Virus record (IMG/VR): IMGVR_UViG_3300049491_000357
Coordinates: 22,839 to 86,838 of that record
Source: a virus
Strand: one strand, 5' to 3'
DNA: 64,000 nt
Part shown: in pieces, positions 1,033 to 63,955 of the stretch
How the letters are laid out: every line of letters begins with the position of its first letter
Numbering within the stretch: the first letter of the stretch is position 1
Notes under the pieces: generated by a model
Seen by the model: only the letters and a program-made list of their open reading frames with translations
The model's database searches: none
Told to the model about the DNA's origin: nothing
Program-made: the position numbers and the translations under genes

Positions 1033-1677
1033 TAAGAAGGAAAGCCGCCAGACGATCGTGAGCGTCGAAGTTGCAGGCTTGTTGATGACAGGAAACGTCA
1101 AGTAGTTGACCAACGTCTCTTTGGTGGTGAGGTCTACGGTAGGGTTGTACGGACCGTTTGGAGGAGAAACGGGGTTCTTGATCGACAGGTTCGTAGAGAC
1201 GTTACCCCCGATGATCCCCATCTCAACCAAAGGTCCAACCGCCTCGGCTTCCGTGAACGTTGTTTGGAAGTCGACGACATTGGTCGGGATGGCTACCGGA
1301 AGCCCACCCCCGTCGATGAACTGAGTATTCGAGAAGGTTTTTCGAGTGATCTCAGCGTACAGGGCTCGTTGGGTGTTCGTTGGAGCCGGAGGAGCCATGG
1401 GGTTCCACCCGGTATCTCCTGTACCCACAGCCAAGCAAAAACACCCGTGAGGGGGTTCCTGCGAGTCCTTCATCAGACGTGCGATCAGGATCGAAGCATC
1501 CTTGACGACAAGATTCCGCTTCTCCCACTCATGTTGAAGCTCACCTGTAGCCCCGTCATGCATCTTGATGAAAACGTCTCCCCGAATGTAGAATCGGGCG
1601 TTTTCATCGTACTTTGGAGATAGGACTACCCCCAAGTTACCTTCAGTGGTTGGAGAAAAAGCCTCGACATTTTTCAT
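1033..1677 (-). CDS. Tail-collar/fibre-attachment domain protein (ends at TTA)
   Basis: Start MKNVEAF at 1677; motif AVGTG..PAPTNTQRAL..E..RK..VVDF.TTF...EA.G.L.E.G; ends IVWRLSF then TTA 1033-1035 (standard-code stop 1018). Confidence 0.7.
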
Positions 1678-8563: not shown

Positions 8564-9094
8564 TAACGTGATGGTCGAAGTGTACGTCACAGACAAGGTG
8601 TCGTTCGTGTTGAGCGTCCTTGTTGCAAACTGGACCTCATGAGCCATGACCCCGCCGACATTCGCATCGAAAACAGCGGACTTCTGTACGCCTTGTGGGG
8701 GGATACCGAGGTACGTGAACATGTAGGCGATCGTCGTCTGATTCGCAGGGACGATAGGCAGCGTCACCGTAGCCAGGGCTCGGGTCAACCCGCTACCCGC
8801 CAGCTCTGCGGGCAAACTCGTGTCTGTCGCCAGAGGAGCCGCAGCATCGTTCGACAGACCGATGTAGTTGAACCCACCTCCAAGTGAACCACGGGTCGGA
8901 ACCGAAGCTGCCGTGGCATAAATGTAGGCGTGGATTCGAACGAGTCCCGCATTGGTGACGAGGTTGTCAACCACCTGATCTTCATCCACCTGACGGTACA
9001 CGTACAGCCCACGCTTCTCGTCGAAGTCGTATGCCTGCTCATGGTGGATTCGAACACGGGCCCTTGGACGAAGCGTTTCAGTGACGATATGCAT
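8564..9094 (-). CDS. Small tail-fibre/collar-domain structural protein (ends at TTA)
   Basis: AGGAGGAGG SD before ATG 9094; NLVTNAG...YIGLS...ATDTSL..EL...GLTRA; TTA at 8564-8566 removes overlap with next gene (start 8549). Confidence 0.7.
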
Positions 9095-17862: not shown

Positions 17863-18114
17863 TAAGGACCCATACGTGAGCTTGTCCAGTTTCCGACGGA
17901 GAAGGTCAAGCTCTGCATTCGAGACCTCGATCGTGCCCCGAACCACTTCCTTCAGTTTCGTGTGGATGCCAAATTCGTTCTTGAACTGCCATTGAGCCCG
18001 TGGGGGGTCGGCATTTTCTTCCGAGCCCGATCCCTCCTCCGTTACGGGAGGGATCTTTTCGGTGTCTGGAGACTCGTCCTCCAATGTGGGATCTTCTGGG
18101 CCACTCATCGTCAC
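17863..18114 (-). CDS. Small acidic/coiled-coil hypothetical protein (ends at TTA)
   Basis: Ends KLDKLTYGS then TTA 17863-17865, 5 nt before ATG 17857; start 18114 (GTG) or 18108 (ATG). Confidence 0.6.
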
Positions 18115-24100: not shown

Positions 24101-24308
24101 TCCACCCAAAGGTGGCCTGAACAAGAAGGCCCTCCGTTTGAACCACTACGAGGTAGTCCGTTCGAGAGACGCCTTCTACCCCTGGAGTGTAGTAGGCGTC
24201 AAAAGCCCCCTGGTCCTCAATGAAATCGTTAGGGGTGAAAGTAAACGGAGAGTTCGACGCCCCAACACGAGGGGGCTCCAAACAGTAACCCTTGTTGGAA
24301 AGTCCCAC
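18111..24308 (-). CDS. Very large virion structural protein (baseplate/fibre) with repeated beta-barrel modules
   Basis: 2065 aa; repeated LTD.S.DF...GV.PGD.V....G.D.G.Y.V..V modules. Confidence 0.75.
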   Translation of the reverse strand: MGLSNKGYCLEPPRVGASNSPFTFTPNDFIEDQGAFDAYYTPGVEGVSRTDYLVVVQTEGLLVQATFGWTKNEGTTTAVVRRFDYNGSDGLFKPLPGSGPTLVGELQSDANTARLRVLPPIGVLVDDPFRLAVGAGSGTTFNVLLVPNDGAFGAPVPGSVELSQATGNLNWAAADLVTYLGQQVRFQQQSYFDYTDSSGRIGLTQDTILILNPLPGAGQFPLIRLGFGFHLTPIQVATEGGFSPDPVAGTVEWALNTGRIKLNSGDVLANAGKPVYYDGTLFGWKIPLPSAPGGTVLVPLPVLPVPAPGGDLIFRLPSGYQFPSVRRVTVFDVGTAGEVQLRTDGAVQFSAADQAQYGATTVTVTRGDLPIERGVAMRFFRSPVNLDGTDPSVKDVSLLYTTQGAVFASPIIQVPYVLLPATPLQDPGYPISIYVEQGTGSFTGVLPDLGVPAPPVGLGYILDYEAKQLLFAQRKVNQLVPFQEPGGTIQLQDVPVRPENLLLELETGPGTGIFNPLGLGSTAFFDPATAIVTLTDQFGTLVVDSTATAFVGSTLTDTSVNFITSGVTPGALLVIATGSAAGVYGVTTVTATTLTTDVPSPIPVGATPYEVRSGSEVIADRFFQETVPVDPNTKIEKVRSLGPIVNSVVVFTGVNPGVFDTPTTMTDTSTDFVVDGVLPGDTVRLTSGPDSNSYRTVTIVEASTLTVDRAFTSYPSANYQIERRLRVPVNYIATTRIRLGLIFASLVQVATNSVFTAPGLLPAGTVEVSLETGDLNFSTVDITSGVTVFWARALKLQIDYRVSKDLGFVELTERLLTNDEMFITYRPVTSTGVLPPVEERVRFLIRKELTLPYPRLAVTDTVQFNPAGRTVADNPAPAVFRGGRPQDSSQITIHSATSTIQFLANVGFMTNALPSGNVVEVDERILVDYYVYEAVGGEKTFTVLQPPIFAAQVSISSGAPGFVLVGDQTATFPPNYLLRIEKEQVYLIGSSVYDPGSDQTTITLAFGATFADDFVNPRLYLSSGLVRTSPSPSFPSYFVIEMSSVQTVPRGMPRVLLAGDQTLNYPTGTIILFTDNATTYDFYYVSGATFKDGVTTVVFTQNALRQYTPNSMILKRSVRPIIEDGVTQAFTKNVPLGSEVVTVFRRTEGQPGEILSSPSEYKLDASGTLTYAQTLRVNESLSILYTGYRIVQAGVRLRASYVALITPSSSNGLEGQILKADYSLVSEDSFYYRVETLTNFSGEVLQELQQSAQGSSPSGGPTTSNASTPTLYQQGRESLFFTEGHMANVDYVSRSYLKFFNDNTNRLEDVLEDEDGRIIGDVNGRFRFDGSVTNPVRTSYATVTNEIDDVFKISDYPVTFTFPPLALTYVGTYLALYQPSGFSRLYPTAKAHLFGVTTGGANTGANTGDRIEDLAQKSLTSLSDTIYRRLPRAHITSDAATGDTTLFVDNAQGTSTFFRPSFAVGMKVVITNRDGVVLISDATPLTVTAVLASPERIQVGPLPIPIPRGATVYLCNTGLTPDTVYWKLYRQGFDIAVDSNEGQLIYVKPYPPFDGSTPLVPAPLQIQTPNAGEFLEMDSVGILQVAKTPYKFPALYGGTGSDCNDQSIPILSPAPTQEVSALTLEATAIASVLSDTTTPTTLVGVTVGVTGTVLTYTGVFPAPLPQVFDLVEFITGPNAGSGFRRITAVGPTTVTVDSAFPNPSSVGNAVITATTNLATGTATFPSATTLDDPGLSVAIQVGHTVVLTTGANAGVRRQVVARLSPTQLQLDHPVPFLVATNYRVSNHLCTYSNWSAVSGATLTEVNVLTVNDHDITPSVVDAVSIAIDRFFEGHPLPPTTYGVLTDLLTPTLNPGNVAGSTLTDLSQDFIAAGVNASHFVYVETGADAGFYQVDSVVSPTQLTITTPFPVVGPVTYRIVQTLGVGLLALQDLFQIRADAQSFSSDTQSFLGIITATTNVFVPPGVIDPFIYANPLSSTTLPVRAAAVAARTAVVTSPTASPVVKVEAIVKTRDKLYDKRYAWIDARTNLETGSLYVIQRAVANRIAATTKLYNDLLKILSVQTTV

Positions 24309-33729: not shown

Positions 33730-36700
33730 TAATCTGTTCTTCATGGCAGCCATGTGCTCAACCACGACATTTTGAGCTGTGGCTTCGACGAACTGCTTAA
33801 GATCCCCCTTCAAGGACAACTCCACTCGCACCTGACCACCTCCGCCCCCTCCTCCTCCGGCGGGAACGATACGTTCCCCCTTGCCAATGGACGTAAGACC
33901 CTCCCCTGGGGCAGGACTGATCTTAGCCAAACCTCCAGCCACAGACGATACCATACCTCCAGCTGCGTTGGCTTTAATGCCATACTCATCCTCATGTTTG
34001 CCCGCATACTCCCCAGCAAACTTCATAGCAGACTTGGGATCACTGACCCCACCTTCAGCGAAGTCATCCTTCCACCCCTTCACCTTGTCTGAGAAGGCGA
34101 GCATGGCGAATTCAAAGAGAGCCACTCGAAGAGAGTTGAGGGTTGATTCCTCAATCATCTTCGCCATTTGATTCTCCATGAAGGACTTGTTCAGTTTGAT
34201 GCCCTTGTTCTTGAGGACGTTCTCAATCTCACCCAAAGTCCCCAGGGTTGCCTCCTGTGCTTCCACCCCAGTTTCCATGACTCCAGTCTGAGTTTCAGGA
34301 GCAGCGGTGCCTCCAAATGTGGCTTTGATGGCATCTTCGACATGAGTGTCGTGGGTGTATGCTGTAGAGTTTGTGGTTAGCGCCTTCCCAGCCTCTTCTG
34401 TGTTGGGGAGTGCCTTTGCAACACCATCTCCAACAGCGGCTGACTGTTCCTCTTTGGTGAGAGCAGAGGGGCCGCCCACTTTTGCTGTATCCCCCAATAG
34501 CTTAACAAGGTCTGTGGGCATCATTCCACCAAGAGCGGACTCACGCGCTTTGGCTCGATCACCCCCAAAGTCAGAATCAATGTCTCCCTCCCCATAACGA
34601 TCTTCAAGAGTCTTCTGAACCAATGCTTGTTTCTGATCTAGGGCGTCAGCTTCTTTCCTCAACGCATCGCTTTTGGCTTTAGCTCTAGCTGCTTCAGGCC
34701 CAGTAGCCCCATATGCCTCTCGATCAACATCCTCAGCCTCAGCTCGTTTGGATGCCCCAGCTTCCCCCTTCGCCATCTTAGATAGCTTCTCAACCTCCTT
34801 GAAAGCATCCGTTTGCTTCAGCGCTTTATTTTGATCCCGCCAATCCTTGTTATCTTTAACGGCAGCAAGGATTGCAGGATCTTTTGTCTTTTGAGCCTCC
34901 ATTTTTGTCTTAGAGGAAGAACTGGCCCCAGGCAATCCGGTAAGAGTTTCCCAGATACCAATGATCGCTTCGTAGAAGGTGTGCATCATCCAGTCGATGA
35001 ACACCTGAAGTTGCTCCATGATACTCTGGACCCGAGTGCCCATTCGCTTGTTAGCTTCCTCCTGGGCATCTTTCCCGTCGGCTGTATCTTTTGTGGCTTG
35101 GTCCATGGTGTCGTAGATCTTGGTCCAAGAAGCATCCTTCGCTTCTTGTGCCGACATCTTCCCCCGTTTGACCAACTCCTCTCGTTGCTCCGCAATCTGC
35201 TCTGCCATATTTTGGTATAGCTGACGCGTTTCATCATCTAGTCCAGCCAAGGAGTCACCGGCTATACTACCCAAATGTCCCTCATCGCTACCAAAACGTG
35301 TAGTTTCGGCATACTTGTGTTCAGCCGCAGCCACCACGCTAACTTTGGAGAGTGCTCTGGCATTTCCTACCAAACCCCCCTTAGCCATTCTCTTCTCGGC
35401 GTTCAGGCTGGAGACGGCCTCCTTCAGGGTGCCTACCTTTGACTTATCCCCTGACTCAGCGACCTTTTTGATCATATCTCGAACAGCGTCTTTACCCGCC
35501 GGGCCAGCTTCAAGAGCCTTCTTGACATCCTGGACAGTGCCCCCACCAGCATCTGCAATAGCCTTCGCGATGGAGCTGTTTTTTGATGCAATGTCCTCCG
35601 CAACAAGTTTGGCAGTCTTGGCAGGCCCTGCGAGTAGGGAGGACTTGACCTTGTCTTGGAAGCTAGCTCCCTTGTATGCATTCATAGCGGACTGCATGAA
35701 TTTCTGAGCATTTCGTGGGCTCATCACCTTACCAAGCTTACCCAAAAGCTTGACCGCATCTTCAAGACGAGTGTTGTATAGACTAAGGTCAGCGGACACT
35801 CCTCGGATCATGGCGTAAAACTTATTGCTGGCGATCCCAGAATCTTCAGCACTTCTCGTAATCATGCGAAACGAATCAACCGTCTGACCGAGACTTTGCC
35901 CCAGCTCAGTCATCATCTCAGCCTGGAAGCCCGTAACCTCCTGCAAAGAGATACCCATCGAGCGGGAGTATGCCACCGCTGCTTGAGTCACTGAGCCAAA
36001 ATCCTTAGAAAACGCAGCGGACTTCTGGTTTAGTTGCCCAAACTGCTGCTCCAACGCCGTAAGCTGCACACCTTCCGCCTGAAGACTAGAAAGCACTTCT
36101 TTATGAGTGTCCGCAGAGATCCCCCAATCCAAGTTATTGGACGCATTGTAAGCTGACTCACGGATGTTTCTCAGTGAGTCATCCATCTTACTCAAGCCTT
36201 CCTCAACATTACCCATCGATCCCGAAAACCACTGAGCTGTTCCAGCAGAAGCCAAGATGTCCTTGTTGAACTCTTTGACCATGGCCTCGGCGTCAACGAA
36301 CATCTTCACGAGCCCGAAGATCGAACCCCCCAAAGTGCCCAGAAGTGGCCCGAGTTTGGATACGGTTGAAATGACCGGCCCCATCTTGCCTGCGATTGCC
36401 CCAAGCCCCTTAAGGGCTGCCCCCATCGCTGCTTCAGGTCCCCCACCCTTTGCTTGAAGTGCAGCACCCTTGGCGGACAACGACCCACCAACCTTGCTCA
36501 GCTTCCCACCAAGGTGTCCCCCGGCTGCCTTGAGGCCCCTGCCAGCAAGCTTAGCAAAGCTCTTCCCCGCCCCTTCAACATCCTTGTGCAACAAGGCTGA
36601 AAGCGGTTCAGCCAGCTCCTTACCAGCCTCAAGAGCGGCCTTCGTGAGTTCATTGCCACTGAACTCGAACTTCAGGTCATTGACCTTGTCGGAGAGGTCT

Positions 36701-46200: not shown

Positions 46201-46495
46201 GACGCATAGCCGCTTCAAGCAAAGCAATACTGGCCTTTGAGACCAAGTTCGACTTGATGAATGATGTAATCACATCAAGATTCTGACGCTCAGCGAAACG
46301 TAGAAGGGTTAGCCCTTTTTGAAGGGTCTGAGACTCTTCTGGGTTGGGATCTCCCGACTCATCGAGGTACCGCATGAAGGTATCAAGAGCGAACAAAAAT
46401 ACCACATAGTCCGCAATGACCAACTCTTGAAGGCCAATATCCTCTTCCTCAAGATTGGCTTTTCTCGACGGGGCTGAGTAGTCGTAGGTGAGCAT
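43217..46495 (-). CDS. UvrD/Rep/PcrA-family SF1 helicase with long N-terminal extension
   Basis: AGAGSGKST, VDEAQD, VGDDKQAINSFQGA, TNYRC, TVHSVKG, ERRLGYVALTRA; start ATG 46495 after GAGG. Confidence 0.95.
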   Translation of the reverse strand: MLTYDYSAPSRKANLEEEDIGLQELVIADYVVFLFALDTFMRYLDESGDPNPEESQTLQKGLTLLRFAERQNLDVITSFIKSNLVSKASIALLEAAMRPPPTPKGASVRALKLRTVLSKGGTTTTKAVFGTSTKARREVQEAIEASMIEDADAALNKFSALVLKNKRLEAWIDEASAVVQPGTAIINPVQEATKGATDATTKLLGDRVRQDGGDLASERAVAASDARAERLGEIEVAATETAKKAIVKSGEEDKPLTRSEVIGVAAATAAAVTSDPDNPQNVPESLRKLDDEQRAAALTDGRVGVFAGAGSGKSTTLVARVDYLVSDRRANPSRILVTSFNSKAASELKEKIGRSAGADALQQMSVGTMHSLFRRFVSEFGTGSEKNALGPGFVQGGEKIAYAVQKIWEDCYKEKLGPAPKLKTAVMNKTKWSGNDISPQQAAAEATTQEEKLTAQWYEIYEGLKGVTPNWKPPCQTKAYEGFMARFRANGQRLGDFTDMLKMYRDILKRDPAVRRKVQGMFDHIIVDEAQDRNGLMADIIDMMSEHITDGADGKSVWIVGDDKQAINSFQGAKASLFKDIFEKEGWKTRVIRTNYRCEPEIVDAANNLISQNEGNVPIPQVPAPDRKRGVGSIRVSRPADEADAAISTINEIKQDQVLGGDLTDNAILCRTNKELNSYETACIIRGIPYARRGSGSFLGSPETAAVLGYVQLVTGTDFEKAQKSLGAVINNPNRFFLSDPKKAPEAIEECFSQYARIKGTSAKSINPLAALEDITFVRILATALAKLTRTGKGYKFEEKVKDLLYTLQDMKVRTSDPDYKTTDLFDDILEIKGVTFEDGQVVDQTFRESLKTNLRNAMGGDEPDDDNEDEEKDEEKDETKGLGNVSFLYQLAEPDPTDEGDSLSPPTTPIGFANKMSRYATRMRDLRTDTDKWNKEQEALPPEQRRRPPGVYVGTVHSVKGAQWKNVYVQMPRGKFPIEFKPKPGDPPPDPVKEQERWEDERRLGYVALTRAAKNLRIVCPNSLGGKPAGISSFVYEADLKPGENIQSESEDGTPKTASQGDWAVSAFQDMGPDPEEGPEGYSYDFSGGAS

Positions 46496-46511
46496 CCTGA
46501 TTACCTCAATC

Positions 46512-46754
46512 CTATAGGAGAAAAGCAAAAAAGCTACTTGCTAGGAGCCAATACCCCTTCATCAATGAGTCTCCCCAGCAAGCTTTTGTGAGTGCTTCTC
46601 GTCGATTTGCCTCACAAGCCTCGGAACGAATTCGAGTCCCTGGGAATTGGCCACGATACGACTCGGCCGTGACTCCATGCACCGCCTTGAGATGGCGGGC
46701 CAGAGTCACGGCCGAGTGTTCGCACAGAAGACATAGAACGTGGTCTTCGGGCAT
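46512..46754 (-). CDS. Small MucR/C2H2-like zinc-finger protein, possibly truncated
   Basis: CLLC...LARHLKAVHGVTAESYRGQFP. Confidence 0.6.
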   Translation of the reverse strand: MPEDHVLCLLCEHSAVTLARHLKAVHGVTAESYRGQFPGTRIRSEACEANRREALTKACWGDSLMKGYWLLASSFFAFLL

Positions 46755-46816
46755 CTAAGTCCGAAGCTAGCCTTGGACTATGTCTGTCAGTCCTTTATTC
46801 TTATTTCTGCCTGCCC

Positions 46817-49800
46817 TAAGATTCTTGCCCTGAGGTTGAAAGTCAGAATGATGTACAAAAGTGGGAAGATTGGCTGGTAGTACGCCTCAAACCTCATGAC
46901 CGTGGGGTCATCAGGGTCGATCGAGGATGTGATACCCGTGAAGGCCCCAACGATCTCCGCCTGAAGCAGTCCCTTGAAGAGGGTCGTCATCGTGACGTTA
47001 ACCTCGTTCGTTCGGCTAGCCAAGAACTTCGTCCCAATGAAGGCATCAAGGACAATACGGCTCTGCTGCTGGACGAAGTCAGCGATCTGCGTGACTGTTG
47101 GAAGTCGCGTCAGAACGTTGCTCATGTTGGTGGTGAGACCCTGTCGAACCCGGATGATGGGGTCAAGGTCCTCAAGCAGGGTGATACCTGCCACCGCCGT
47201 CTGGTTTGCCTCAACAGGGTCGAGGATGCGTGGGATCCGAGTGAATCCAACGATGTTACGCCGCGTGTATGGGGTTGCCACGTCCACGGCTGGCGAGACC
47301 ACAGCTCCTGACATCGCCGCAGCGAAGAAGGTGCCGTCGACAAGCTGTTCGAAGTTCTGACCCAATTCGTCAGTCAAAGTGATGACCGCCGAATCCGGGT
47401 AGAACGCTACCATACGATTCGAGTTGAGAGCCCGTGCGATAGCCTGAGCACTCAAAGGGGTCGTCCCAGAGGCGAACCCAATGAAGCCCATACGTTCTGC
47501 TTGAGCCCGAATCGTGCTCTGGGTCTCGACGTGCTGTGTGAGGTACGAGTACACCGCAGTCGAGGTTGCCAGAGGCACCAAGAGGTCAGGCTTGATGTTG
47601 CCCGGCAGCGGAGTGGCCAGCCCATCGATTGCCGCGATGAAGCTCTGGTCACTCGCTTGGTTCGTGTTCGGAACCTTGAGGACCTGCTTCACCCCAACGA
47701 GAAGGGCTCCGTTGAGGATCGCAAGGTACGCACCCAACGTTGCACGGTTTTCGCCGGAGGCTTTCCCAAAGGTCGCTTCGATCGTCTTGAGCTGACGGTA
47801 GAGGCGGGTCGAAAAGTCCTGCTTCAAGTACAGGTAACTGATGAAGTAGAAGTCACCGACCTTGGGTTCAACCCCACCTGGGTTGAACGTCTGGAGTGAA
47901 GCGGTGTCATTCACCGCAACCCCAACCGTGTTGTACACGAGGGTCTCCAAACCTGGAACCGCGTAGAACGGTCGGCTTGGATCCACCATGAAGGTCGGCG
48001 AGACCGTCATGGTGAACGAGCCACCATTCGTGTAGAGACCCGTTGAGGCAGGGAGCACCGTAAACCGGAGGCCCGTGACTGCATCGGTGTACGTCTGCCC
48101 AGGGATACCCGTTCCCGCCGAACCCGAGGGGTTGTTCGACGAGACAGTGTAGATCTGCTGAGCATCTTCCCCGTTATCACCATCCGTACCAGGAGTGATC
48201 TTCGTTCCCGTGGTCACGTTGAAGGCAGAGTTTGCTGCATTCAAGAAGGCAACCGAGGAGGTCGTGAGACCTACTGTGATCGACTCAAACGTGATGTAGG
48301 TCGCGCCATCGAGGGTGGTTGCGTACGCAAACCCATCCACTTGGAAGCCAACCGTGTCCATCAGGACATCAACGACTTCTTGGGGGTTCACGAGAGTCTG
48401 CGACGCAGAGTCATTTTGGTTGAAACCAAGGGTGGCATTTGCGTTGCCATCCAAGATAACCAAACTGCTGGTTGCATCATTGACCGTCGAGAGGAGACGG
48501 AGGTGGTCGAGATTCAGCAGAGTACCTGCTGATGCAACACCCGGGGTCACCGCGTTGACGGCAGCAGCCACAGCCGCTGTGGTTACAGCCACACCAGCAG
48601 GCAATGTGGCTGCGTAGTCTGTCCCGTTCACCCTGTACTTGAAGGTGTCGTTGAGGCCCGTCGTGATGTTGAACGGACCAGCGATTGACCCAAGCAGGGT
48701 GGCGGCCTTGTTGATTGCACCCGTGGTTCCTGCTGAGCCCTGGAAGGCTGTGAAGCCCAAGACCTGCTCAACATTACCCGACTCAATGCGGACAGTTGAA
48801 ACCACATCCAGACCACCAGGGAGAGCCCCAGGGGTCGTCGTGCTCTTGATGATGAACACGATGTCGCCCGTGAGGGGGCCAATCTGGAGGTACGAGGCAA
48901 CAACCGAACCAACCGCAACGTTGATGTCGCTGACGATTTGGGCCGGTGTGCGGTTACCCGCAGTCAGGGCAACCGGATAGACTGTCCCATCAACACTGAC
49001 ATTCAACGTACTCAGAGCGGGGATCGTGATCTTCCCCGTGTCGATACCCGTCTGGATCGGCACAACGTGCCCACCAATCAGGTAGGCGGGAGCCGCCGTC
49101 GCGAGGTTGGTTGTGTAGGTGACCCCGTTGAGCTGCGTTGTCCAGGTTGCCGAGGTTGGGCTGAAGAACGAGTAGGGACCCTGACCCTTGATGGTGTAAG
49201 CTGCGTTTTTCGCAACATCCATCGAGAAGAGGACCGTAACTGTCTCAGAAACCGGGGTCCCAGCACCCGTGTGGAATGCGTCGGGGATCTGCTCAACACC
49301 ACGAGGCCACTGCACAATCTGAGGCAGACCCGTCTTCGACCCAAATCGGGTCTGAAGGAGGTTCGCGTTTTGCGTCGTGGAGAAGACCGTGTACTGTCCA
49401 GCCCCCACAGGTCCAGGCACCGTGCAGGTGAGGAGGTAGGTGTCGTCAACGATCCGGTTGTAGTAGAACGTTGCAAACGCGAACCAATCGGGCGGGACGG
49501 GGTCCTTGAGGGTGACAAGACGATTCACACCGTCAACCGAGATCACCGTTGCAGCTGGTCGATTCAGTGCGTCTCGGAGGTTGCGGCCAACACGAACCAC
49601 CACCAGATCAGGGCGATTCGTAACAACGTCCTGCTTGCCGTTGGTGATCGAGTTGTAGAGCGGTAGCCCCAACGTCGTATCACGCCCGTTACCCGTCGTA
49701 GGCACTTCGGGCAAGTAGAACTGCGTGGTCGAAACGACAGCAGGGATCGTCGTGTTATTGACGAACCGATCACACTCCCCAAGGTACAGTTTGTCATCGC

Positions 49801-51052
49801 TCAACGAAGGGGTGACCTGGGTGTTGTCGAAGGGTTCCGAACCAGGCGTCGTATTCCCAGACGTGACCTGGACGCTGGTGCCCCAGTGCACAACCGACAC
49901 ATCCTCACTTGGGTTTTGGATGACGAAATCCTGCCCCTGGATGTAGTCCGAACGACCTGGTGCAATACCACACCGAAGCACCGTCGTAACGAAGGTGTTC
50001 GGGAGATAGTCGAACGTGTCCTGCCAGGTGTTCGCCCAGTAAGTCACTGTGACGGTCGAACCGAGCGTCGGAGCGAACGATAGGGTAACGGTACCGTTGG
50101 CACCGTCCACCGCAGTGGGGATCGTCTGGATGTTGTTGACCTTGACGACCACCTTTGAGGTGTCGGTCGTTGTGAGACCACCCCCAGAACCGTCCACGAT
50201 GGGGCGGTTGAAGACCTGGAAGGTCTTCTGGCGATTGGTCTTCGTCCCAGGTTGGAAACCAAGAGGTCCGTTTGCGGTGCCAGCCTCGATCTCGATCTCC
50301 TGTGTCGCCGTGAACAACAGGTGATCCAAACCCTGGTTGTCGGTGAAGACGGCGGTTGAGAAGTTCGGGATGAGCGCCGCATCAATCTGCGTCTTCATCC
50401 CGTTGGCAGTAGTCGAACCTGCCGCAAAGATGACCGTGTAGGAGGTGCCGTTCACCTTTAGAGTGAACGTGTCGTTCGACCCCGTAACGATGGCGAAAGG
50501 AGAGAAACCGGGCGTCGTAAGCTGAGCTGCCGTCGAAGTCACCTGTGCCGACACGTCATCCGTGAAGGCAGTGTCCCCTCGATGGAAGAAGTACGTCACC
50601 CGAACCAGGTCGGTCGGCTGCGTCGGGATCTGAAGTGTGACGAGACCCTTCTGGCCATTGACCGCACCCACAGAAACGGGCACACCGTTCACCGTCACTG
50701 TGACGGTTCGGATGTCGTTGGTTACTCGTCCGAAGCCCTGCCCATCAACGATGGGGTAGTTACGAACACGAAACGTCGTACGTGTCCCATCTTGTGCTCC
50801 AAGGATGGGGTTCAAAGGGTTCGTAGCATCTACGATCCAAGACAAGCTCACATCTTCATTGTTGATCTGCTGATCAACAGTGGCAGACGAGCCACGAACG
50901 ATCTCCACGTCGTTCTGGGTCAGTTCTTCCTGACCCACACCAATCACCACAGGGATACGCAATCCCGCAGTGAAGTTGGTGAGATTCGCTTCAGTCAATG
51001 TTCGGGTGTATGCACCCGGCGGGACGTACCCGACGAAAGGCCCCTGAGCCAT
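46817..51052 (-). CDS. Tail sheath protein (ends at TTA)
   Basis: N-terminal YVPPGAYT; C-terminal IRVRQGLTT...FIGTKF...YQPIFPLLYIILTFNLRARI then TTA 46817-46819 (standard-code stop 46787). Confidence 0.92.
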
Positions 51053-52849: not shown

Positions 52850-53860
52850 TCACTCAGAGTACTCTTCACCGGCCAACACAAGAAGCCCCTCCGCAACAGC
52901 GGTCATAGGGTCACTGGCCATGCGGATCTCAGAGATGGGGATCGGAAAACCACGCTTGTTAACCAGAGCGTACTCTTCTCGGAAAACCTCTTCGAACCCC
53001 CCTGCCTTGGTGGTTCCACCCGAAATGACGAACGGGATGGGGTCTGGGAGGCTGATCGTATTGGCCGCCTGTCGGAACTGGGCTGCGATGTTCTCCAGAC
53101 AGTACCTAATGAGAGCCCTGACGTAGAGAACGATGGCTTCTTCTTCTCGGTTCTTGGGGTTGAGAAGGTCGACCCCTTTTTCCTTCACGGCACACATACG
53201 TGAAGCGGTTGAACCTAGGGCTTTTGCCGCGTGATTGTCGATGTAGTCCCCACCCCGAGCGAGCGAGAACTCCAACCCCTTCACGGTTTGATAAGCCAAG
53301 GCAACATTGCACATACCTGAGCCGAAGCTGACAGCCAGTCCGCTAAACTGCTCAGCAGCACACTGGCTGTAGATGATCGCCATTGCTTCATTCATCGGAT
53401 GGGGGGTGTACCCGTGCTCCGATAGAATCTTGCGGAAAACCTCTGTGTGGTAAACCACATCCTGGTTGGGGTCATCCAGTGGGGAGGCAGGCACGCTGTA
53501 GTAGCAGTGCTCTCGCTCCGTAATCGGCTCGGAGAGAACGTTGAAGATGAGCAACGACAAGATCTTTTGTGCTGACATCTCTCCGGCCGCAATAACCCCA
53601 CGGCTAAGAGGTCGACGCACTTCCTGTTTGAAGAGGTTGGCCATCGTGAGAGCTGAGTCGCCCAACACGACCAATGACCCCTCCTCCTCAACGTACGAGA
53701 CCTTGGACAGCTTCAGGGTTTTCTTCGCCTCAAGCTCAAGATCAATGAAAGCGTCTCGAACACGCTTTGTCGTTGTACGCCCGGCTTCAGTTGTACGGGC
53801 TGACACGATATTCATCGTGCCAATATCGAGTCCTACCCCAGGCTTGTTCTCAGATGCCAT
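52850..53860 (-). CDS. Actin-like ATPase (MreB/MamK superfamily)
   Basis: Phosphate-1 GLDIGTMNIV, connect NEAMA, phosphate-2 VSFGSGMCN, adenosine ISGGTT, DPMTAVAEG; GGAG SD before ATG 53860. Confidence 0.88.
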   Translation of the reverse strand: MASENKPGVGLDIGTMNIVSARTTEAGRTTTKRVRDAFIDLELEAKKTLKLSKVSYVEEEGSLVVLGDSALTMANLFKQEVRRPLSRGVIAAGEMSAQKILSLLIFNVLSEPITEREHCYYSVPASPLDDPNQDVVYHTEVFRKILSEHGYTPHPMNEAMAIIYSQCAAEQFSGLAVSFGSGMCNVALAYQTVKGLEFSLARGGDYIDNHAAKALGSTASRMCAVKEKGVDLLNPKNREEEAIVLYVRALIRYCLENIAAQFRQAANTISLPDPIPFVISGGTTKAGGFEEVFREEYALVNKRGFPIPISEIRMASDPMTAVAEGLLVLAGEEYSE

Positions 53861-53888
53861 TTTTGATCTCCATCTAATGTAGTGATTT

Positions 53889-54623
53889 TTACTTCTTCCA
53901 CGCCGAGTCATTCGGCAGGGGGATACCCGAGGATGAGAACTTCATCGTCGTATCGAGCTGAGTGCGTTGCTTGAACAGATAGATCAACGTCTCGTGTTCA
54001 TCCGCATATCCTTGCAGTAGGTTGTCTGTCCCAGGCGTAAGTACATCTTGGGCCTTCAAAGCGGCGTAGGCGAGGTCAAAGACCTCCATGAACCCCAGCA
54101 CAGCCAAGAAGGAGCATTGAACCATGACTTCGGCAGAAGCCGAAGTTGAGTTTGGGGCCTCACGGTAGATGACCTGCGTGTACCTTTGCATCATATTGAC
54201 TTGATGCAAAGGTTCGACCAAGGAAGGGACCCCCAAGCCAACCGCTCGTTCGGCAAGCCCATCCACCATCTCAAAAGTAGTATTGTAGGCTCGATCAAAA
54301 AGCTGATGGTCGGCGTAAAACTGCGGCCCACTTGTCGCCCAATGATGGGATTGGTGCAGTTGAGCCTCTGCCCTAAGAACAGCCAAAAGAACAGCTAGCT
54401 CTGCTGCCTTCGACCCTTTTTGGAAAAGAGGCAACGACTGACCAAAGAACTGCCGAAGGGCCTGCTTGAACACATCTGCCTGATTGGCCCGAACTCCCAA
54501 AGAAGCTGTTTTGGCCTGCTTTCGGGAGACTTCAGGCTGAGCGGGTAGATACGGAGGTCCGTCCCGAAAAGGGTCAAACGCAAGCGGGTCGACCAGAATT
54601 GTTCGATCCGAAGGAGCAGTCAC
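53889..54623 (-). CDS. Dps/ferritin-like protein
   Basis: HHWATSGPQFYADHQLFDRAY...VDGLAER Dps-type signature. Confidence 0.8.
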   Translation of the reverse strand: MTAPSDRTILVDPLAFDPFRDGPPYLPAQPEVSRKQAKTASLGVRANQADVFKQALRQFFGQSLPLFQKGSKAAELAVLLAVLRAEAQLHQSHHWATSGPQFYADHQLFDRAYNTTFEMVDGLAERAVGLGVPSLVEPLHQVNMMQRYTQVIYREAPNSTSASAEVMVQCSFLAVLGFMEVFDLAYAALKAQDVLTPGTDNLLQGYADEHETLIYLFKQRTQLDTTMKFSSSGIPLPNDSAWKK

Positions 54624-55488: not shown

Positions 55489-55977
55489 TCATTTCCCTGT
55501 AAGTGTTTTTGCAATCTCCCGACGTAGCAGATCAGGAAGTGTCTTCTTAGCCCATGCCTTAGTCTCTCGTCGAGCCAATTCCACAAAATTAGATGGCTTC
55601 CTACCGGGATGGATCCACTTACCATCAGCCATCGACTTTGCAGTAGCCGATCGGAAGATCAACTTCCCCGACTCCGTGATGATAGGGATAGGAGCCTTGG
55701 CTCGTTTGAGCCAGAGCATTTGCCGGGACTTTTGCCCCTCAACCATGGGACGCCACGCAGGGTGCAAAACCGTCAGCAAGATAGACGATTTCTTGACCTC
55801 AATCTTCATCGCCTTCGAAAAGGCCCTCTTGGCATCATTTGAGAACCCTGTCTGAGAGAGTTGAATTCGAAGACGCCTAAGAAATTGTCGTTCAACCTTC
55901 TTCAGAACGGTTGCGACATCCCCCTTCAGTTCTCCTGTGAGGGGCTTCTTGTATATCGCTTTGACGCCAGACTTCAT
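55489..55977 (-). CDS. Basic neck/tail-completion protein (HK97 gp10-like)
   Basis: 162 aa; KWIHPGRKPSNFVE; neck-gene context. Confidence 0.55.
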   Translation of the reverse strand: MKSGVKAIYKKPLTGELKGDVATVLKKVERQFLRRLRIQLSQTGFSNDAKRAFSKAMKIEVKKSSILLTVLHPAWRPMVEGQKSRQMLWLKRAKAPIPIITESGKLIFRSATAKSMADGKWIHPGRKPSNFVELARRETKAWAKKTLPDLLRREIAKTLTGK

Positions 55978-57326
55978 AAGTAAGTCGTATTTTCCCAGGT
56001 GATCGTACGACCTCTCAACTCACGCTCGTCTGGGATATTGGGCTTCTCCGTGATTGGCGTCGGCCCATTATTGGGGAACTCAGGAAGGATTCTCCCAGCC
56101 GCCACCCGAAGAGGATCCCCCATGGGGACCTTCAATCGCACGTCCTGTTCATCGATGTGCCCGATATTGAAGTGCTGTTGAAGGACCATGCCTCGTGAGG
56201 ATGGGAATCTAACAGCACCCACAGAGTATCGTTCACCGTTGAGCTTCACCAAGAAGTCGCGTTGAGACAAGATGGGGGTTGGTCCCGTCCACACCTCGTA
56301 GGTATGTTCGACGGTTCGTCCCTTGTCTTTCTGCGCAATCCTACGCTCAGCATCATCAGGGGCGATGATGGCATCGTAGGGGCCCTCATACCCCCCAACG
56401 ATTGCAGTGCCGAAACAGATGAGGCAGTCGTTTTGAGGCTGCTTGTGGTACGAGTCCCCCACGCACGGACAGTCAATACCCACGTTTTTACGCAAGAAAA
56501 AGCGTACTCGCTCTCCCCCCTGCTCCAGGATCCAACGGTTCCGACGAACGGCTTCCCGCCACTGCCAATCAAGCTTCTCGACCTCAAAGCTTGACACTGC
56601 CACAGCCCGCTCAAGTGGAGTCTCCACCAAATCCGCAGCAGTGCAGCTACAGGGATCACACCCAGCAGGCAAACCCACCGTGGTGACTCGGTAGAAGACC
56701 CTCTGCATGAGGTCTGTCTTGAGGAGAGACTTCATCCTCCGGTAAGAGCAAGTGACTTTGAAACCAGGTTCAGGGGTCACCGCAGGATCAAGGTTTTGAA
56801 GCGTGACGTTGTTGTAATGCGTCACATCAATCTCGACTTCCCCCGAGAAGCCATCAACCGACTTGATGCGGGCTAGTTGATCTCCAACAAATACCTGCAC
56901 ATCGGAAGGTTCATCCGCGTAGGTACCTTGAGACCCAGACTTGACGATGGGCCCATTGCGAACTTGGAAAACGAAGCGGGGCCAGTAGTTCTGGACAGAG
57001 TTCACCCCCTCAATACGAAATTGATCCGTGACATCCTCAGTCACGAACTCAATGTCTGTCCGATCTTTCCAGTATGTCGTCTGGACAAGGAAGTCAGTCA
57101 GACGGGTAAACGGCCCGTACTCCGAGTCAAAGCTCCGATAGATGTTGACACCCAGGACACGAAACCGGCTATTCAAAGCCAGGATGCTGGGTTCATCCCA
57201 TTGGAGATCAAACGACCCTGGTTGCCACCCACTCGTCAAGAACAAGTTGAGGGGGGCAACAGGCAGAGCTACCCTCGTCAGCTCTAGATCCGAGGGTACC
57301 CTGTCTCGGTTTGAGGCGTAAGACAT
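55977..57326 (-). CDS. Neck/head-closure protein with FN3-like N-terminus and zinc finger (ends at TTA)
   Basis: GGERVRFFLRK...CPC...CLICFGT..GGY.GP; ends WENTTY then TTA overlapping next ATG (TTATG). Confidence 0.7.
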
Positions 57327-61080: not shown

Positions 61081-62472
61081 TAATGGTTGGTCCACAACAA
61101 AGCTTTGCACAGGTACTCCAAACACCTCTTCGGACGGGACACCAGGAGGGCTTATGACGGAGGACGTCAAGACAAACTCCTGTACAGGTGTTCCCATTGC
61201 TTCTGCCGTTGGGATGTACGGAGGGTTCAAGTACAGGACAAATGTAACGAACCCAAATCCTTCCTCACTTGGGATACCTGTGGGGAAGATATCATGCGAA
61301 ACGATGATGTTGAACGTGATCGACGGAGCCGCTGCAAGGGTCAACCTTGCATTCAAGTCAGCCTGAGCCGACGAATTCAGTTGCGCACTGGACGAAAGAG
61401 ATGTCGTCGGATTAAACGTCGTACTCGGACTGAAACTCAAGCTTGACTGAGCTGGGTACGTTACGGTACCCGCCGCATTTAGCTGAGTTGCTCCAACCCA
61501 CGAAGCTCCCGAGTTGAAGGTGGAAGACAGGTCAATTGATAGCCCCACAGATGCAGTGAACCCAGCACTTTGACCAAATGTCGTAGACCCTAGAGCGTCG
61601 ACCACATTGGAGCCCACATGGCTCGAAGTTGCTGTGAGGTTGGTAGCCCCCACAGCATCCAAGACACTAGACACCGAAAGCCCTGTGTTCGTTGCGGCAC
61701 TGAGGGACCCTACAAATGCCGCCTCACAGGTACTCGTGTGCCCGGCCGAAGCCCCCACGCTAAAGGAGGCTGGAATGTCCATTACCGCGTAGGTGGACCA
61801 CCCAGCTACTGCCGCAAAGGCATTTTGAACACTATAGTCTGTTGAAACACTTTCTGTCTGAGAAGCTGTGCTTTGGGTAGTGATGTCCCCCACAGCATCC
61901 AAGTTGCCTGTTTCTGAGACATCCGCTGTCTGAGACAGTGCAAGATCTGGGTACCCGTCAATCGATCCTGAACTCGTGATCTGAGGGAACGTTCCAAAAG
62001 TAAGCGTTGAGCTGTACGTATCTGGGACATTGTACAGCCGAACGTCTGCAACATTCGGGTCCGGGGGGACTCGAAGCCAGACGTCGAATCGTGTGGAGTA
62101 TCGATCCGACACGAAAATCACAGACGTGAGCGTTAGCTTAGGGGCCGCCGAAACGACAATCGCATTGACCAGGCCGATTGTCGGAGTAAGGGCGAGGACT
62201 GGGGACGAAACAGCAGTGATCCCAGGTGCAACTGGGGGGACTCCAATCAGGACGTCATTAGGCCCAATCGTTGGGCTGGTGACGAACGTTGTAGTGCGGG
62301 GAGCCAGTGTTGGGGTAGCTGGGACCCCAATGAAGTTCGTGATGGTCGCAGCAACGACCACAGAAATGATGGGGGAGAGAATAGACGTGACCCCAGTTTC
62401 GACGCTAGGGGCTCTCACCCTAACGTCCGCCGGTTCAATCTCTCCGCTGAAGAGTCGGACATCAGCCGACAT
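61081..62472 (-). CDS. Ser/Thr/Ala-rich fibre/decoration protein (ends at TTA)
   Basis: Ends VVDQP then TTA 61081-61083, then GAGATCATTT and ATG 61070. Confidence 0.7.
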
Positions 62473-62974: not shown

Positions 62975-63535
62975 TAAATTGAGCGATTCCACCATGTATT
63001 GGTGCACAGTGAGCGAGCCCGTGGCCACCGTCTGCGTAAAGAACAGGTCGAGGGTGTTCGCCGCCGTGGAGTCGAAGCCTGTACCGACGGCAGGAGCCGC
63101 GTTCCAAGGTAGGATGGCCGACACGACACCCTTTGGTGCAGTCGCAGGCACACCAAGGATGTCTTCACAGGTCCAAGTGCCCTGCCCAAAAAGCGTAGCC
63201 GCAACACCAGAACCAATCGAACGACAGGTCAGCAGGAGGTCCAACTTCCAACCAACGTTGGTATGGGCTGCCACCGTATCAAGCAGGATTGCCTGAGAGT
63301 CAAAGGCAACAACAGCACCCACACGGACGTCGAATCGGGCAGTTCCAGGGGTCGTGATAACGCTGCTGATACGACCAGAAGCCGTGATGCGAAGCATGCG
63401 GCCTACATAGAAGTAGTTGTTGGGGAGCGTGATCTTCGCTGCCGTTGGGATCGCGGTTGCTGCTGCCGCTGCCGTGAGGGTAGGGCCGTCAGTTGTCGAG
63501 TTGACGAGAGTTTCCTGCCAGGTCTGAAGGGACAT
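62975..63535 (-). CDS. Beta-rich structural protein (ends at TTA)
   Basis: Own GGAG SD and ATG 63535 (MSLQTWQE); ends HQYMVESLN then TTA 62975-62977. Confidence 0.7.
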
Positions 63536-63547
63536 TTGAATTCTCCG

Positions 63548-63955
63548 TAAGGGGATCGAGATCACGAGGGAAGGACAGCTTGCTGTTACACCAGCAGCGA
63601 AAGCCGTGGTACCAACGGTTGCATCACAACCTTGGTCGATGGTGCCTACTGTACCATCATGTACAGGAGTCTCATCAGATTTCAAGAGGCGATACCACCT
63701 AACGTCAACGGTGTTGAGGATGACTGCGGAACTGATTGCATTGGCCGTCTTTGTGCCGCTGATTGCCGCCGCAAAAGCCACAGGACTCAGATTCAACCGA
63801 ACAGCTTTGGTCTGGTCCGTCACCACCACGTCAGGACTCGCGGGCTGACCGGATCCACCACCATAGAAGTCCATGAAGCCTCCACCCAGGACGTCGAGGG
63901 CTGCATCAAGGGCTGCATTCTTAGCAACAGCAGAGTAAGTCGGATTTCGAGCCAT
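63548..63955 (-). CDS. Small structural protein (ends at TTA)
   Basis: MARNPTYS..AKNAALD; ends SLVISIP then TTA 63548-63550; the standard code fuses it to the next gene. Confidence 0.7.

What the first reader, a model, noticed from the sequence alone, without database searches (positions are those of the whole stretch)
46787..46819. Sheath ends at TTA; possible conditional readthrough control of essential tail genes
Seen: the sheath ends TFNLRARI-TTA, and the 10 further codons to TGA are AT-rich and look intergenic. TTA-terminated genes here are mostly structural (sheath, tape measure, neck, fibres), and seven of nine have a canonical stop 1-12 codons later. Inference: correct C-termini may be made only once UUA termination is switched on late in infection. 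This would mirror stop-codon-recoded phages that gate late genes, or invert bldA-type TTA control in Streptomyces.
Basis: inference. Interest (0 to 1): 0.7.

Follow-up and report, generated by a model that had tools for sequence, protein, structure and literature searches.

The report
TTA acts as phage stop codon
In this fragment of a giant phage the leucine codon TTA never occurs inside genes but sits exactly where related phages have stop codons, so it most likely ends translation, a genetic-code change so far reported only from organelles.

Summary
On the minus strand the 1411-codon gene ends ...TFNLRARI-TTA (46819..46817), followed by 9 codons and TGA. It is a tail sheath by fold search and by tblastn. 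Of 120 listed homologues, 106 stop exactly at that residue. Of 52 related loci, 45 have TAG, TGA or TAA where the window has TTA, and 2 also have TTA.

Across the whole 86.8-kb contig, no in-frame TTA lies inside homologous coding sequence. A relative that uses TTA as sense has 423 in 98,862 codons. Twelve genes, nine of them in the window, have TTA at the orthologues' stop position, often 2-14 nt before the next start codon.

At least four other phages of this clade show the same pattern. TTA and TGA replace each other at orthologous stops in both directions. Both trait-positive relatives with enough sequence carry a tRNA with anticodon UAA beside a PTH2 gene. In relatives without the trait, the tRNA at that place reads UGA, UAG or UAA.

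Best reading: UUA is a fourth termination codon. The release mechanism and the host are unknown.

The parts
46817..46819 (-). TTA codon that ends the tail sheath gene; proposed termination codon
   Evidence: sequence; of 72 homologous ORFs, 60 are closed and aligned to within 3 residues of their own stop; 58 of these end at the residue before the TTA and 2 end two residues earlier; 106 of 120 homologues end there; 45 of 52 loci have TAG, TGA or TAA at this position and 2 have TTA.
46817..51052 (-). Tail sheath gene, 1411 codons plus TTA (ATG at 51052)
   Evidence: ORF under table 23. Foldseek on the C-terminal 420 aa gave 27 hits at E <= 0.001, and the listed ones are sheath or contractile-tail entries (8q1i, 6j0n, 3j9q, 6rao); tblastn hits features annotated 'tail sheath' in Tunturiibacter phage Tunturi_5 (33% identity, 70% cover), Bacillus phage G and mycobacteriophages.
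46787..46816 (-). Nine codons plus TGA after the TTA; read here as untranslated spacer
   Evidence: coding score upstream of the TTA is 535, downstream -1.5. The tail is not conserved: window LGQAEIRIKD, L007 LGTARAVME, P0001 LPAR; in run X4 a relative's contig loses likeness between 46533 and 46817.
46512..46754 (-). Next gene, small Ros/MucR-like zinc-finger protein (80 aa)
   Evidence: PF05443, E = 6.2e-07.
63548..63550 (-). TTA ending a 135-aa virion structural protein. Under table 11 it fuses in frame to the next gene.
   Evidence: PHROG 3758 (140 positions) matches residues 7-134/135 up to profile position 137/138; the TTA is followed by CGGAGAATTCAA and then ATG.
62975..62977 (-). TTA ending a 186-aa gene (62975..63535)
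   Evidence: coding score 86.5 before and 0.8 after.. No homologue was available.
61081..61083 (-). TTA ending a 463-aa gene; the next gene's ATG is at 61070
   Evidence: No homologue in my set.
55977..55979 (-). TTA ending a 449-aa gene, directly followed by TGA; the next gene's ATG overlaps
   Evidence: 39 homologous ORFs, 31 reach their own stop, 29 of those end at the residue before the TTA; the G002 orthologue has TGA here and the G001 orthologue has TTA.
33730..33732 (-). TTA ending an 1139-aa gene; the next gene's ATG is at 33724, 5 nt on
   Evidence: 3 of 3 homologues that reach their stop end at residue 1147, with TTA at 1148. G001 and G002 have TGA here.
17863..17865 (-). TTA ending a small gene (about 105 aa); the next gene's ATG is at 17857
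   Evidence: the one homologue (G003) ends with TGA at the aligned position..
8564..8566 (-). TTA ending a 244-aa gene; the next gene's GTG is at 8549
   Evidence: 2 homologues end at residues 259 and 256, with TTA at 258..
1033..1035 (-). TTA ending a 214-aa gene (PHROG 5417)
   Evidence: 4 homologues end at residue 323 (three) or 322 (one), with TTA at 324..

Best explanation
In this phage and in some of its relatives, UUA is read as a signal to end translation. It is a fourth stop codon beside UGA, UAA and UAG, and is no longer a leucine codon. The sheath is therefore made as a 1411-residue protein ending ...TFNLRARI, and the nine codons up to TGA are spacer.

Shown: the codon's distribution, namely absent inside genes, present at orthologous stop positions, and interchangeable with TGA.

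Inferred: how it is recognised. The most likely route, by analogy with organelles that read UUA as stop, is a class-I release factor of the RF2 type with widened second-position tolerance. It could come from the host or from the unsequenced part of the phage, and it would act where no leucine tRNA reads UUA.

The tRNA with anticodon UAA found in trait-positive relatives is read as the matching suppressor tRNA. Related phages keep opal, amber or ochre suppressor tRNAs at the same PTH2-linked place.
For: (1) Depletion. In-frame TTA is 9 of 19,774 codons in the window's minus-strand ORFs, against 181 and 90 off-frame. In the whole contig there are 20 in 27,229 stop-to-stop codons, while TTG is 519 and CTA 182.

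(2) Position. None of these TTAs lies within homologous coding sequence. Two apparent exceptions are an antisense shadow ORF and a site 2 codons upstream of a start codon.

(3) Stop alignment. In 8 genes with homologues, the relatives' ORFs end at or within 3 residues of the TTA. A ninth is supported by the end of a PHROG profile. Genes without TTA align through to their canonical stop, for example 32 of 33 at g64085-64933.

(4) Control. Relative G005 (GC 0.555) has 423 TTA in 98,862 codons; 197 are spanned by homologous alignments and 2 are stop-aligned.

(5) Recurrence. G001 has 0 spanned and 6 stop-aligned. G6C4 has 13 stop-aligned, and 40 of 156 genes are TTA-ended by coding score. L007 and L020 have one case each.

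(6) Interchange. Two G000 genes that end in TGA have TTA in G001. Three G000 TTA ends are TGA in G001 or G002.

(7) Operon junctions. The next start codon follows the TTA within 2-14 nt at 6 sites, in one case with GGAG. Reading TTA as stop (table 23) removes the long gene overlaps and shortens none of the long ORFs.

(8) tRNA correlation. Both trait-positive relatives with at least 127 kb of sequence have a 76-nt tRNA with anticodon UAA near a PTH2 gene. The PTH2-linked tRNA is UCA in G002, CUA in G012 and UUA in G010.

(9) Precedent. UUA is a stop in labyrinthulean mitochondria, peDinoflagellate plastids and Marsupiomonadales mitochondria, inferred by the same criteria and tied to RF changes (PMC12574857, passages read).
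Against: No release factor or other terminator was found. PF00472 matched in 0 of 5 relatives' records. In MAG G006 it matched only the cellular RF1 and RF2, on contigs C9 and C17, and these have ordinary PAT and SPF motifs.

The tRNA with anticodon UAA could instead make TTA a sense codon. In G6C4 the PTH2 gene has an internal TTA (codon 57) spanned by 2 homologues, and one further TTA is spanned by 1 alignment.

The host is unknown. The cellular-looking contigs of the MAG that holds G6C4 use TTA internally, for example 21 of 11,203 and 26 of 10,379 codons with none in the last 30 codons.

Three of the 12 TTA ends (62977, 61083, g2521) rest on context only. Genes were called with my own codon-score script and starts were not determined. 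There is no protein-level evidence. The window's contig is a fragment with no tRNA genes, so the tRNA link is shown only in relatives.
Confidence: 0.65

Rival explanations
1. UUA is an unassigned ('hungry') codon rather than a recognised stop. No tRNA reads it in the infected cell, so ribosomes stall. The finished chain is then freed by a rescue route such as slow near-cognate release, peptidyl-tRNA drop-off with hydrolysis, or tmRNA. Stop codons have drifted to TTA because the outcome is tolerable.
For: Relatives G002 (26 TTA in 103,041 codons) and G003 (9 in 42,011) avoid TTA almost completely without using it at stops, which looks like an unassigned stage. These phages encode tmRNA (G001, G002, G005) and a PTH2 peptidyl-tRNA hydrolase. 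No release factor was found.
Against: Stall-and-rescue is slow, and tmRNA adds a degradation tag (established knowledge, recalled). That fits poorly with a sheath needed in hundreds of copies, or with 40 of 156 genes in G6C4. tmRNA is also present in G005, which uses TTA as sense. A suppressor-type tRNA matched to UUA suggests the codon is handled like the canonical stops.
Confidence: 0.2
2. TTA is a private sense codon that acts as a gate. It is read only by the phage's own tRNA with anticodon UAA. TTA-ended genes are completed, tail included, only when that tRNA is made.
For: A tRNA with anticodon UAA is present in 2 of 2 trait-positive relatives with enough sequence. There is an internal TTA in the G6C4 PTH2 gene. 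The model parallels bldA control (PMC10732093, abstract read) and stop-recoded phages (recalled).
Against: A gate could sit anywhere in a gene, yet in the window's contig no TTA is internal although TTG (519) is one transition away. The tails are no shorter than chance. Several tails run on in frame into the next gene, although homologues are separate genes and an ATG follows the TTA within a few bases. The tails are not conserved between close relatives. The sheath C-terminus is fixed in 106 of 120 homologues.
Confidence: 0.1
3. There is no code change. Extreme codon bias against TTA is combined with independent stop-loss mutations (TAA or TGA to TTA) whose short extensions are harmless.
For: TTA is one substitution from both TAA and TGA. 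Some homologues tolerate 1-4 extra C-terminal residues (12 of 120).
Against: No other sense codon shows this pattern at stop positions in the contig. Twelve such events in about 70 genes, all to the one codon that is otherwise absent, recur in at least four other phages. Extensions of 60-200 codons and in-frame gene fusions would result.
Confidence: 0.03
4. Sequencing or assembly artefact, for example a modified base in stop codons that is misread as T.
For: Relative G001 encodes DpdA (7-deazaguanine DNA modification) and several DNA methylases.
Against: The effect is frame-specific. It is seen in independent public assemblies: IMG/VR contigs L007, L014 and L020 and a MAG contig. Logan contigs of run X1 match the window without a difference, though X1 may be the source sample. 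An artefact would not explain the matching tRNA anticodon.
Confidence: 0.02

Closest known systems
UUA as termination codon in organelles: labyrinthulean (Thraustochytrium) mitochondria (NCBI table 23), peDinoflagellate plastids (UUA/UCA), Marsupiomonadales and Pseudoscourfieldia mitochondria (UUA/UUG). Source: PMC12574857, passages read.
   Same: It is the same codon and the same kind of evidence. The codon is absent inside genes and is found only where homologues have stops. The standard stops remain in use alongside it.
   Different: Those are organelle genomes with few genes, and altered RF2 (Ser204) or mtRF1a proteins have been identified. Here it is a large tailed phage of a bacterium. 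No RF is known, only part of the clade has the trait, and a matching tRNA with anticodon UAA is present. That paper calls the plastid case the first sense-to-stop change outside mitochondria.
Stop-codon recoding in phages (TAG or TGA read as an amino acid, with phage suppressor tRNAs). Recalled from Ivanova 2014 and Borges 2022, not read here. PMC10607447 was seen in a search listing only.
   Same: A phage lineage departs from the standard code, and a phage tRNA is matched to the codon concerned.
   Different: The direction is opposite. There a stop becomes sense and interrupts ORFs. Here a sense codon becomes a stop, and no canonical stop interrupts conserved genes.
bldA/TTA control in Streptomyces and UUA-linked bypassing in a Streptomyces phage (PMC10732093, abstract and outline read)
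   Same: UUA is a very rare codon whose reading depends on one special tRNA.
   Different: There TTA is an internal sense codon in a few regulatory genes. Here it is absent internally and sits at stop positions.
Unassigned codons in Micrococcus luteus and Mycoplasma capricolum (recalled from Kano 1993 and Oba 1991, not read here)
   Same: A codon disappears from coding sequence when nothing decodes it. This resembles relatives G002 and G003.
   Different: In those organisms the codon is not used at gene ends.
Tunturiibacter phage Tunturi_5 (PP885688.1), the closest cultured phage; tail sheath gp326
   Same: A jumbo myovirus (308.7 kb) with a homologous giant sheath, 33% identity over 70% of the query.
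   Different: It uses TTA inside annotated genes (13 of 11,835 codons) and its 34 checked CDS end in TAA, TAG or TGA.

Membership tests
Genetic code with UUA = stop (sense-to-stop reassignment, as in NCBI table 23) | The codon is absent from conserved internal positions of genes | tested here: met
   No in-frame TTA lies inside a homologous alignment in the contig. Control relative G005 has 197 spanned.
Genetic code with UUA = stop (sense-to-stop reassignment, as in NCBI table 23) | The codon occurs where homologues have termination codons | tested here: met
   Eight genes by homologue ends and one by a PHROG profile end. For the sheath, 45 of 52 loci have canonical stops at that position.
Genetic code with UUA = stop (sense-to-stop reassignment, as in NCBI table 23) | Loss of the cognate tRNA-Leu(UAA) | tested here: inconclusive
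   The window's contig has no tRNA genes. G001 and G6C4 have no long-arm tRNA-Leu(UAA) in their arrays but do have a 76-nt tRNA with anticodon UAA and G73. The host is unknown.
Genetic code with UUA = stop (sense-to-stop reassignment, as in NCBI table 23) | A release factor altered in its codon-reading region | not testable with these tools
   No RF was found in 5 relatives' records. The RF1 and RF2 of the MAG that holds G6C4 have standard PAT and SPF motifs, but that MAG is not shown to be the host.
Genetic code with UUA = stop (sense-to-stop reassignment, as in NCBI table 23) | Protein ends verified at the codon | not testable with these tools
   This needs proteomics or ribosome profiling.
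Stop-codon-recoded phages (TAG or TGA as sense) | In-frame canonical stops inside conserved genes | tested here: not met
   Long ORFs of up to 2065 aa are intact under table 11, and homologues align through them.
bldA-type TTA regulation | TTA as a rare internal sense codon in selected genes | tested here: not met
   There are no internal TTAs in the window's contig. In relative G6C4 two in-frame TTAs are spanned by homologous alignments: codon 57 of the PTH2 gene (2 alignments) and codon 379 of ORF 103088-104855 (1 alignment).
Contractile tail sheath protein | Sheath fold in the C-terminal part and homology to annotated sheaths | tested here: met
   27 Foldseek hits at E <= 0.001, the best 8q1i_I at 2.8e-09. 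The model is modest (pLDDT 62.2, TM 0.2-0.44); tblastn to features annotated tail sheath; faint PF17482 match (E = 0.083) in homologue P0024.

The most novel reading that the evidence does not exclude
The phage itself, not its host, makes UUA a stop during infection. One way would be to remove or out-compete the host's tRNA-Leu(UAA). Host messages that contain UUA would then be cut short, while the phage's own UUA-free genes are unaffected and can use UUA as a terminator. The phage's PTH2-linked tRNA with anticodon UAA would be a private suppressor that tunes read-through, for example of its own PTH2 gene. This would be a virus-imposed change of the genetic code used as a host shut-off weapon.
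Probability: 0.2. Interest if true: 0.97.

Novelty: new variant of a known kind. Interest (0 to 1): 0.88.

Why it matters
All alternative codes reported for phages and free-living bacteria change stops into sense codons or swap amino acids. Sense-to-stop changes are reported only from mitochondria and, in 2025, from a plastid (PMC12574857). My four literature searches turned up no report for a phage or a bacterium.

A fourth stop codon in a widespread clade of giant phages from freshwater, sediment and sludge samples would have several consequences:
- It extends this class of code change to viruses.
- Standard gene callers would systematically mis-annotate these genomes with extended and fused proteins, up to a quarter of genes in one relative.
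- The clade offers a natural series for testing how codon capture proceeds: TTA as sense, TTA avoided, and TTA as stop.
- It points to a release mechanism for UUA, and a matched suppressor tRNA, that could be isolated and used in synthetic recoding.

Tried and rejected
- Exact-pattern scan of viral contigs for the sheath end: 0 hits.
- First genome-contig scan with the single protein: 31 stretches matched a pattern but none encoded a relative.
- PDB sequence search with the sheath profile: 0 hits.
- PHROG and Pfam left most proteins unnamed.
- Release-factor search: PF00472 matched 0 of 5 relatives' records. In MAG G006 only the cellular RF1 and RF2 matched, and their motifs are normal.
- +1 frameshift to TAG or TAA at the TTA: 6 of 11 sites would give one, about what base composition predicts, so this was rejected (my count).
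- Backup-stop selection: rejected.
- Promoter and terminator scan of 46400..47000: nothing.
- Host assignment: the phage contig G6C4 is binned in a MAG labelled Lysinibacter, but the bin is mixed. Contig C1 also shows terminal TTAs (11 of 21 in the last 30 codons), while C2, C3, C7 and C8 use TTA internally. No host can be named from this.
- Sequencing runs: no RNA holder is listed. Contigs of X1 (possibly the source sample) are identical. X2 and X3 cover parts. X4 is a relative about 90% alike.
- Gene-content screen for a trait-specific factor: four proteins are shared by G001 and G6C4 and have no tblastn match in G002 or G005. They include a metallophosphoesterase and a papain-like protease near the tRNA arrays. 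These are leads only, because the genomes are incomplete.
- Amino-acid identity of the tRNA with anticodon UAA: not resolved. It has G73 and a short variable arm, and its best pairwise match is a tRNA-Lys.
Full report
What is there. The window is the last 64 kb of an 86,838-bp virus contig (G000; GC 0.544; no tRNA genes). Nearly all genes lie on the minus strand. At the finding, the minus strand reads ...ACT TTC AAC CTC AGG GCA AGA ATC TTA GGG CAG GCA GAA ATA AGA ATA AAG GAC TGA. Under table 11 the ORF is 46787..51052 (1421 aa).

The gene is a tail sheath. PHROGs and Pfam gave nothing above threshold. An AlphaFold model of the last 420 residues was built on 34 aligned homologues (pLDDT 62.2). 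Foldseek gave 27 PDB hits at E <= 0.001, and those listed are sheath or contractile-tail entries: phage 812, PVC, AFP, R-type pyocin and T4. TM-scores are low (0.2-0.44). tblastn against GenBank phages hit features annotated 'tail sheath' in Tunturiibacter phage Tunturi_5 (33% identity over 70% of the query), Bacillus phage G and many mycobacteriophages.

The sheath ends where homologues stop. A search of 5.8 billion proteins gave 933 hits at E <= 0.001 among 7,998 scored candidates. Of the 120 listed, 106 end exactly at the residue aligned with the window's RARI. Twelve run on for 1-4 residues. Two (P0001 at 97% identity, and P0016) run on starting with L. In 52 related DNA loci where the C-terminal motif was found, the next codon is TAG (21), TGA (17) or TAA (7). 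It is one extra sense codon before a stop in 5, and TTA in 2 (L007 and L014).

TTA across the contig. In 39 minus-strand ORFs of the window, TTA is 9 of 19,774 in-frame codons, against 181 and 90 in the two other frames. CTA is 148 and TTG 400. In my codon-score gene set for the whole contig (59 ORFs, 27,229 stop-to-stop codons) there are 20 in-frame TTAs. Eleven have coding signal before them and none after. Six lie before the coding signal starts. One is at an in-frame junction of two genes. Two are in doubtful plus-strand ORFs.

I then compared all ORFs with ORFs of four relatives' records and 68 loci. Wherever a TTA-bearing gene has homologues, their ORFs end at the TTA:
- g11068: 4 of 4.
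- g21136: 4 end 3 residues before the TTA, each with 2-3 further codons of their own.
- g23856 (window 1035): 4 of 4, within one residue.
- g31372 (window 8566): 2, within 2 residues.
- g40668 (window 17865): 1 of 1.
- g56388 (window 33732): 3 of 3.
- Sheath: 58 of 60, plus 2.
- g78812 (window 55979): 29 of 31.

At 63550 the 140-position PHROG 3758 profile ends at the TTA. Genes without TTA align through to their canonical stop, for example 32 of 33 at g64085. One search showed two TTAs 'spanned' by alignments. One is an antisense shadow ORF. The other lies 2 codons upstream of a start codon, in the out-of-frame image of the preceding gene's conserved end. So no TTA lies inside a homologous coding region. 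Three of the twelve ends (62977, 61083, g2521) rest on context only.

Junctions. After the TTA the next gene's start follows at 2 nt (g21207), 5 nt (33732, 17865), 10 nt (61083), 12 nt with GGAG (63550) and 14 nt (8566). At 55979 the ATG overlaps TTA-TGA. Reading TTA as stop (NCBI table 23) turns a 175-nt overlap and an in-frame fusion into ordinary operon junctions. It shortens none of the long ORFs.

Controls and relatives. These phages are giant: the IMG/VR relatives' contigs reach 529 kb. Three states can be seen.
- TTA as sense. G005 (GC 0.555) has 423 TTA in 98,862 codons, 197 spanned by alignments and 2 stop-aligned. It carries a long-arm tRNA-Leu(UAA).
- TTA avoided. G002 has 26 in 103,041 codons (1 spanned, 0 stop-aligned). 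G003 has 9 in 42,011.
- TTA at stops. These are the window's contig; G001 (251 kb, GC 0.68: 31 in 74,699, 0 spanned, 6 stop-aligned); G6C4, a 127-kb contig binned in a MAG (69 in 38,180, 13 stop-aligned, 2 spanned, and 40 of 156 genes TTA-ended by coding score); L007; and L020.

Between G000 and G001 the stop at orthologous genes switches both ways. TGA in G000 corresponds to TTA in G001 at g32985 and g24565. TTA in G000 corresponds to TGA in G001 or G002 at g56388, g11068 and g21136. Both have TTA at the sheath and at g78812. This is how synonymous stop codons behave.

The tail is incidental. The distance from TTA to the next canonical stop does not differ from the distance from ordinary stops to the next in-frame stop. 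For G000 the medians are 10.5 and 15 codons (p = 0.60). For G001 p = 0.42 and for G6C4 p = 0.63. The tails differ between close relatives. A relative about 90% alike in run X4 loses likeness between 46533 and 46817, so likeness resumes at the TTA.

A matched tRNA. G001 and G6C4 each have, outside their main tRNA arrays, a 76-nt tRNA with anticodon UAA, a short variable arm, G73 and an encoded CCA (Rfam tRNA 47.3 bits). It lies next to a PTH2 peptidyl-tRNA hydrolase gene (PF01981, E = 1.3e-06). In G001 it overlaps the ORF's 3' end. In G6C4 it is about 1.5 kb away. Four further records hold a PTH2 homologue. In G002 the nearby tRNA has anticodon UCA, about 0.3 kb away on the opposite strand. In G012 it is CUA and overlaps the gene end, with a second CUA tRNA nearby. 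In G010 it is UUA, about 3.4 kb away. In G004 there is none of that kind. Several of these tRNAs share the acceptor stem and D-arm. So 5 of 6 PTH2 loci have a neighbouring tRNA that reads a termination codon, and in the two trait-positive phages that codon is UUA. I read this as independent support that UUA has stop status there. It equally shows that read-through is possible: the G6C4 PTH2 gene has an internal TTA at a variable position (A or M in homologues).

Mechanism. Shown: the distribution of the codon. Inferred: termination. In organelles that read UUA as stop, altered RF2 (Ser204) or mtRF1a proteins are held responsible (PMC12574857, passages read). By analogy, an RF2-type factor with relaxed reading of the second base is my leading candidate. 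I found none. PF00472 matched 0 of 5 relatives' records, and those records are 27-87% complete. In MAG G006 only the cellular RF1 and RF2 matched, with normal motifs. The alternative is that UUA is simply undecodable and chains are freed by rescue factors, which would fit the phage tmRNA and PTH2. That seems a poor way to make a sheath. The host is unknown. The closest cultured phage infects an acidobacterium and uses TTA as sense (13 of 11,835 codons).

TTA-ended genes are not confined to structural genes. In G001 a Sigma70_r4 protein gene ends at TTA, with homologues ending 2-3 residues before it. In G6C4 TTA ends occur on both strands and include a metallophosphoesterase gene. In the window's contig the few recognisable non-structural genes (helicase, Ros/MucR-like, zinc ribbon, volactin-like, ferritin-like) end in canonical stops. 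They are too few for a test.

Literature. Four full-text searches found no report of TTA or UUA as a stop in a phage or bacterium. PMC12574857 calls its plastid case the first sense-to-stop change outside mitochondria. I did not read supplements.

Verdict. The best reading is a fourth stop codon (0.65). An unassigned-codon variant (0.2) and a tRNA-gated read-through variant (0.1) are the serious rivals.

Noticed in passing
L083:7711-8110 (G001); L139:1826-1901 and G6C4 123364-123690; G002 302161-302848; L140:1455-1848; L171:3254-7002: A PTH2 peptidyl-tRNA hydrolase gene is accompanied in 5 of 6 related phages by a tRNA that reads a termination codon. The anticodons are UCA, CUA (two copies), UUA, and UAA in the two TTA-stop phages. 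In two cases the tRNA overlaps the 3' end of the PTH2 ORF.
   Followed up: partly
G002 249578-252388; G001 209017-209091; L172:17211-17284: Several phage tRNAs have leucine anticodons (CAA, GAG, CAG, UAG, UAA) and A73 but are only 74-78 nt long, so they lack the long variable arm expected of tRNA-Leu. They sit beside normal 85-88-nt tRNA-Leu genes.
   Followed up: no
G001 200303-200654; G002 249709-250060; G005 tRNA array: Phage-encoded tmRNAs with tags ANDNVALVALAA, ANDNALVPMQMAA and ANYNGFAQAA lie inside tRNA arrays of 33-42 genes. ARAGORN also calls a tRNA with a four-base anticodon (tcgg) in G001.
   Followed up: no
window 52850-53911 (-): A strong match to Volactin (PF25216, E = 3.7e-70), an actin homologue family described from haloarchaea, in a bacterial-type jumbo phage. 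It is conserved in G001 (L077:3158-4162).
   Followed up: no
G001 201372-202571 and 205685-206719; G6C4 78851-79849 and 113403-114041: A calcineurin-like metallophosphoesterase and a papain-like cysteine protease are shared by the two TTA-stop phages and have no tblastn match in G002 or G005. In G001 both sit in the tRNA array. They are candidates for a trait-linked factor, but the genomes are incomplete.
   Followed up: partly
G006 contigs C1, C4, C5, C10: The MAG labelled Lysinibacter (5.1 Mb) contains jumbo-phage contigs. C4 is one. C1, and perhaps C5 and C10, show the same excess of near-terminal TTAs. The bin is mixed and its taxonomic label says nothing certain about the host.
   Followed up: partly
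window 2922-8549, 18111-24308, 10147-13596 (-): There are very long structural ORFs (1875, 2065 and 1149 aa) with almost no family matches (only PPC and Baseplate_J domains). They are conserved across the clade.
   Followed up: no
window 46533-46817: In a relative about 90% alike (run X4), the stretch holding the small Ros/MucR-like gene is replaced by 60 other letters. That gene is therefore dispensable or mobile.
   Followed up: no
L082:12605-13327 and L071/L072/L081 (G001): G001 encodes DpdA (7-deazaguanine DNA modification), a PAPS-reductase-like protein and several DNA methyltransferases, which suggests modified DNA. It also encodes ClpX, GroEL, RecA, a ribonucleotide reductase and a Ro60 vWA-domain protein.
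   Followed up: no
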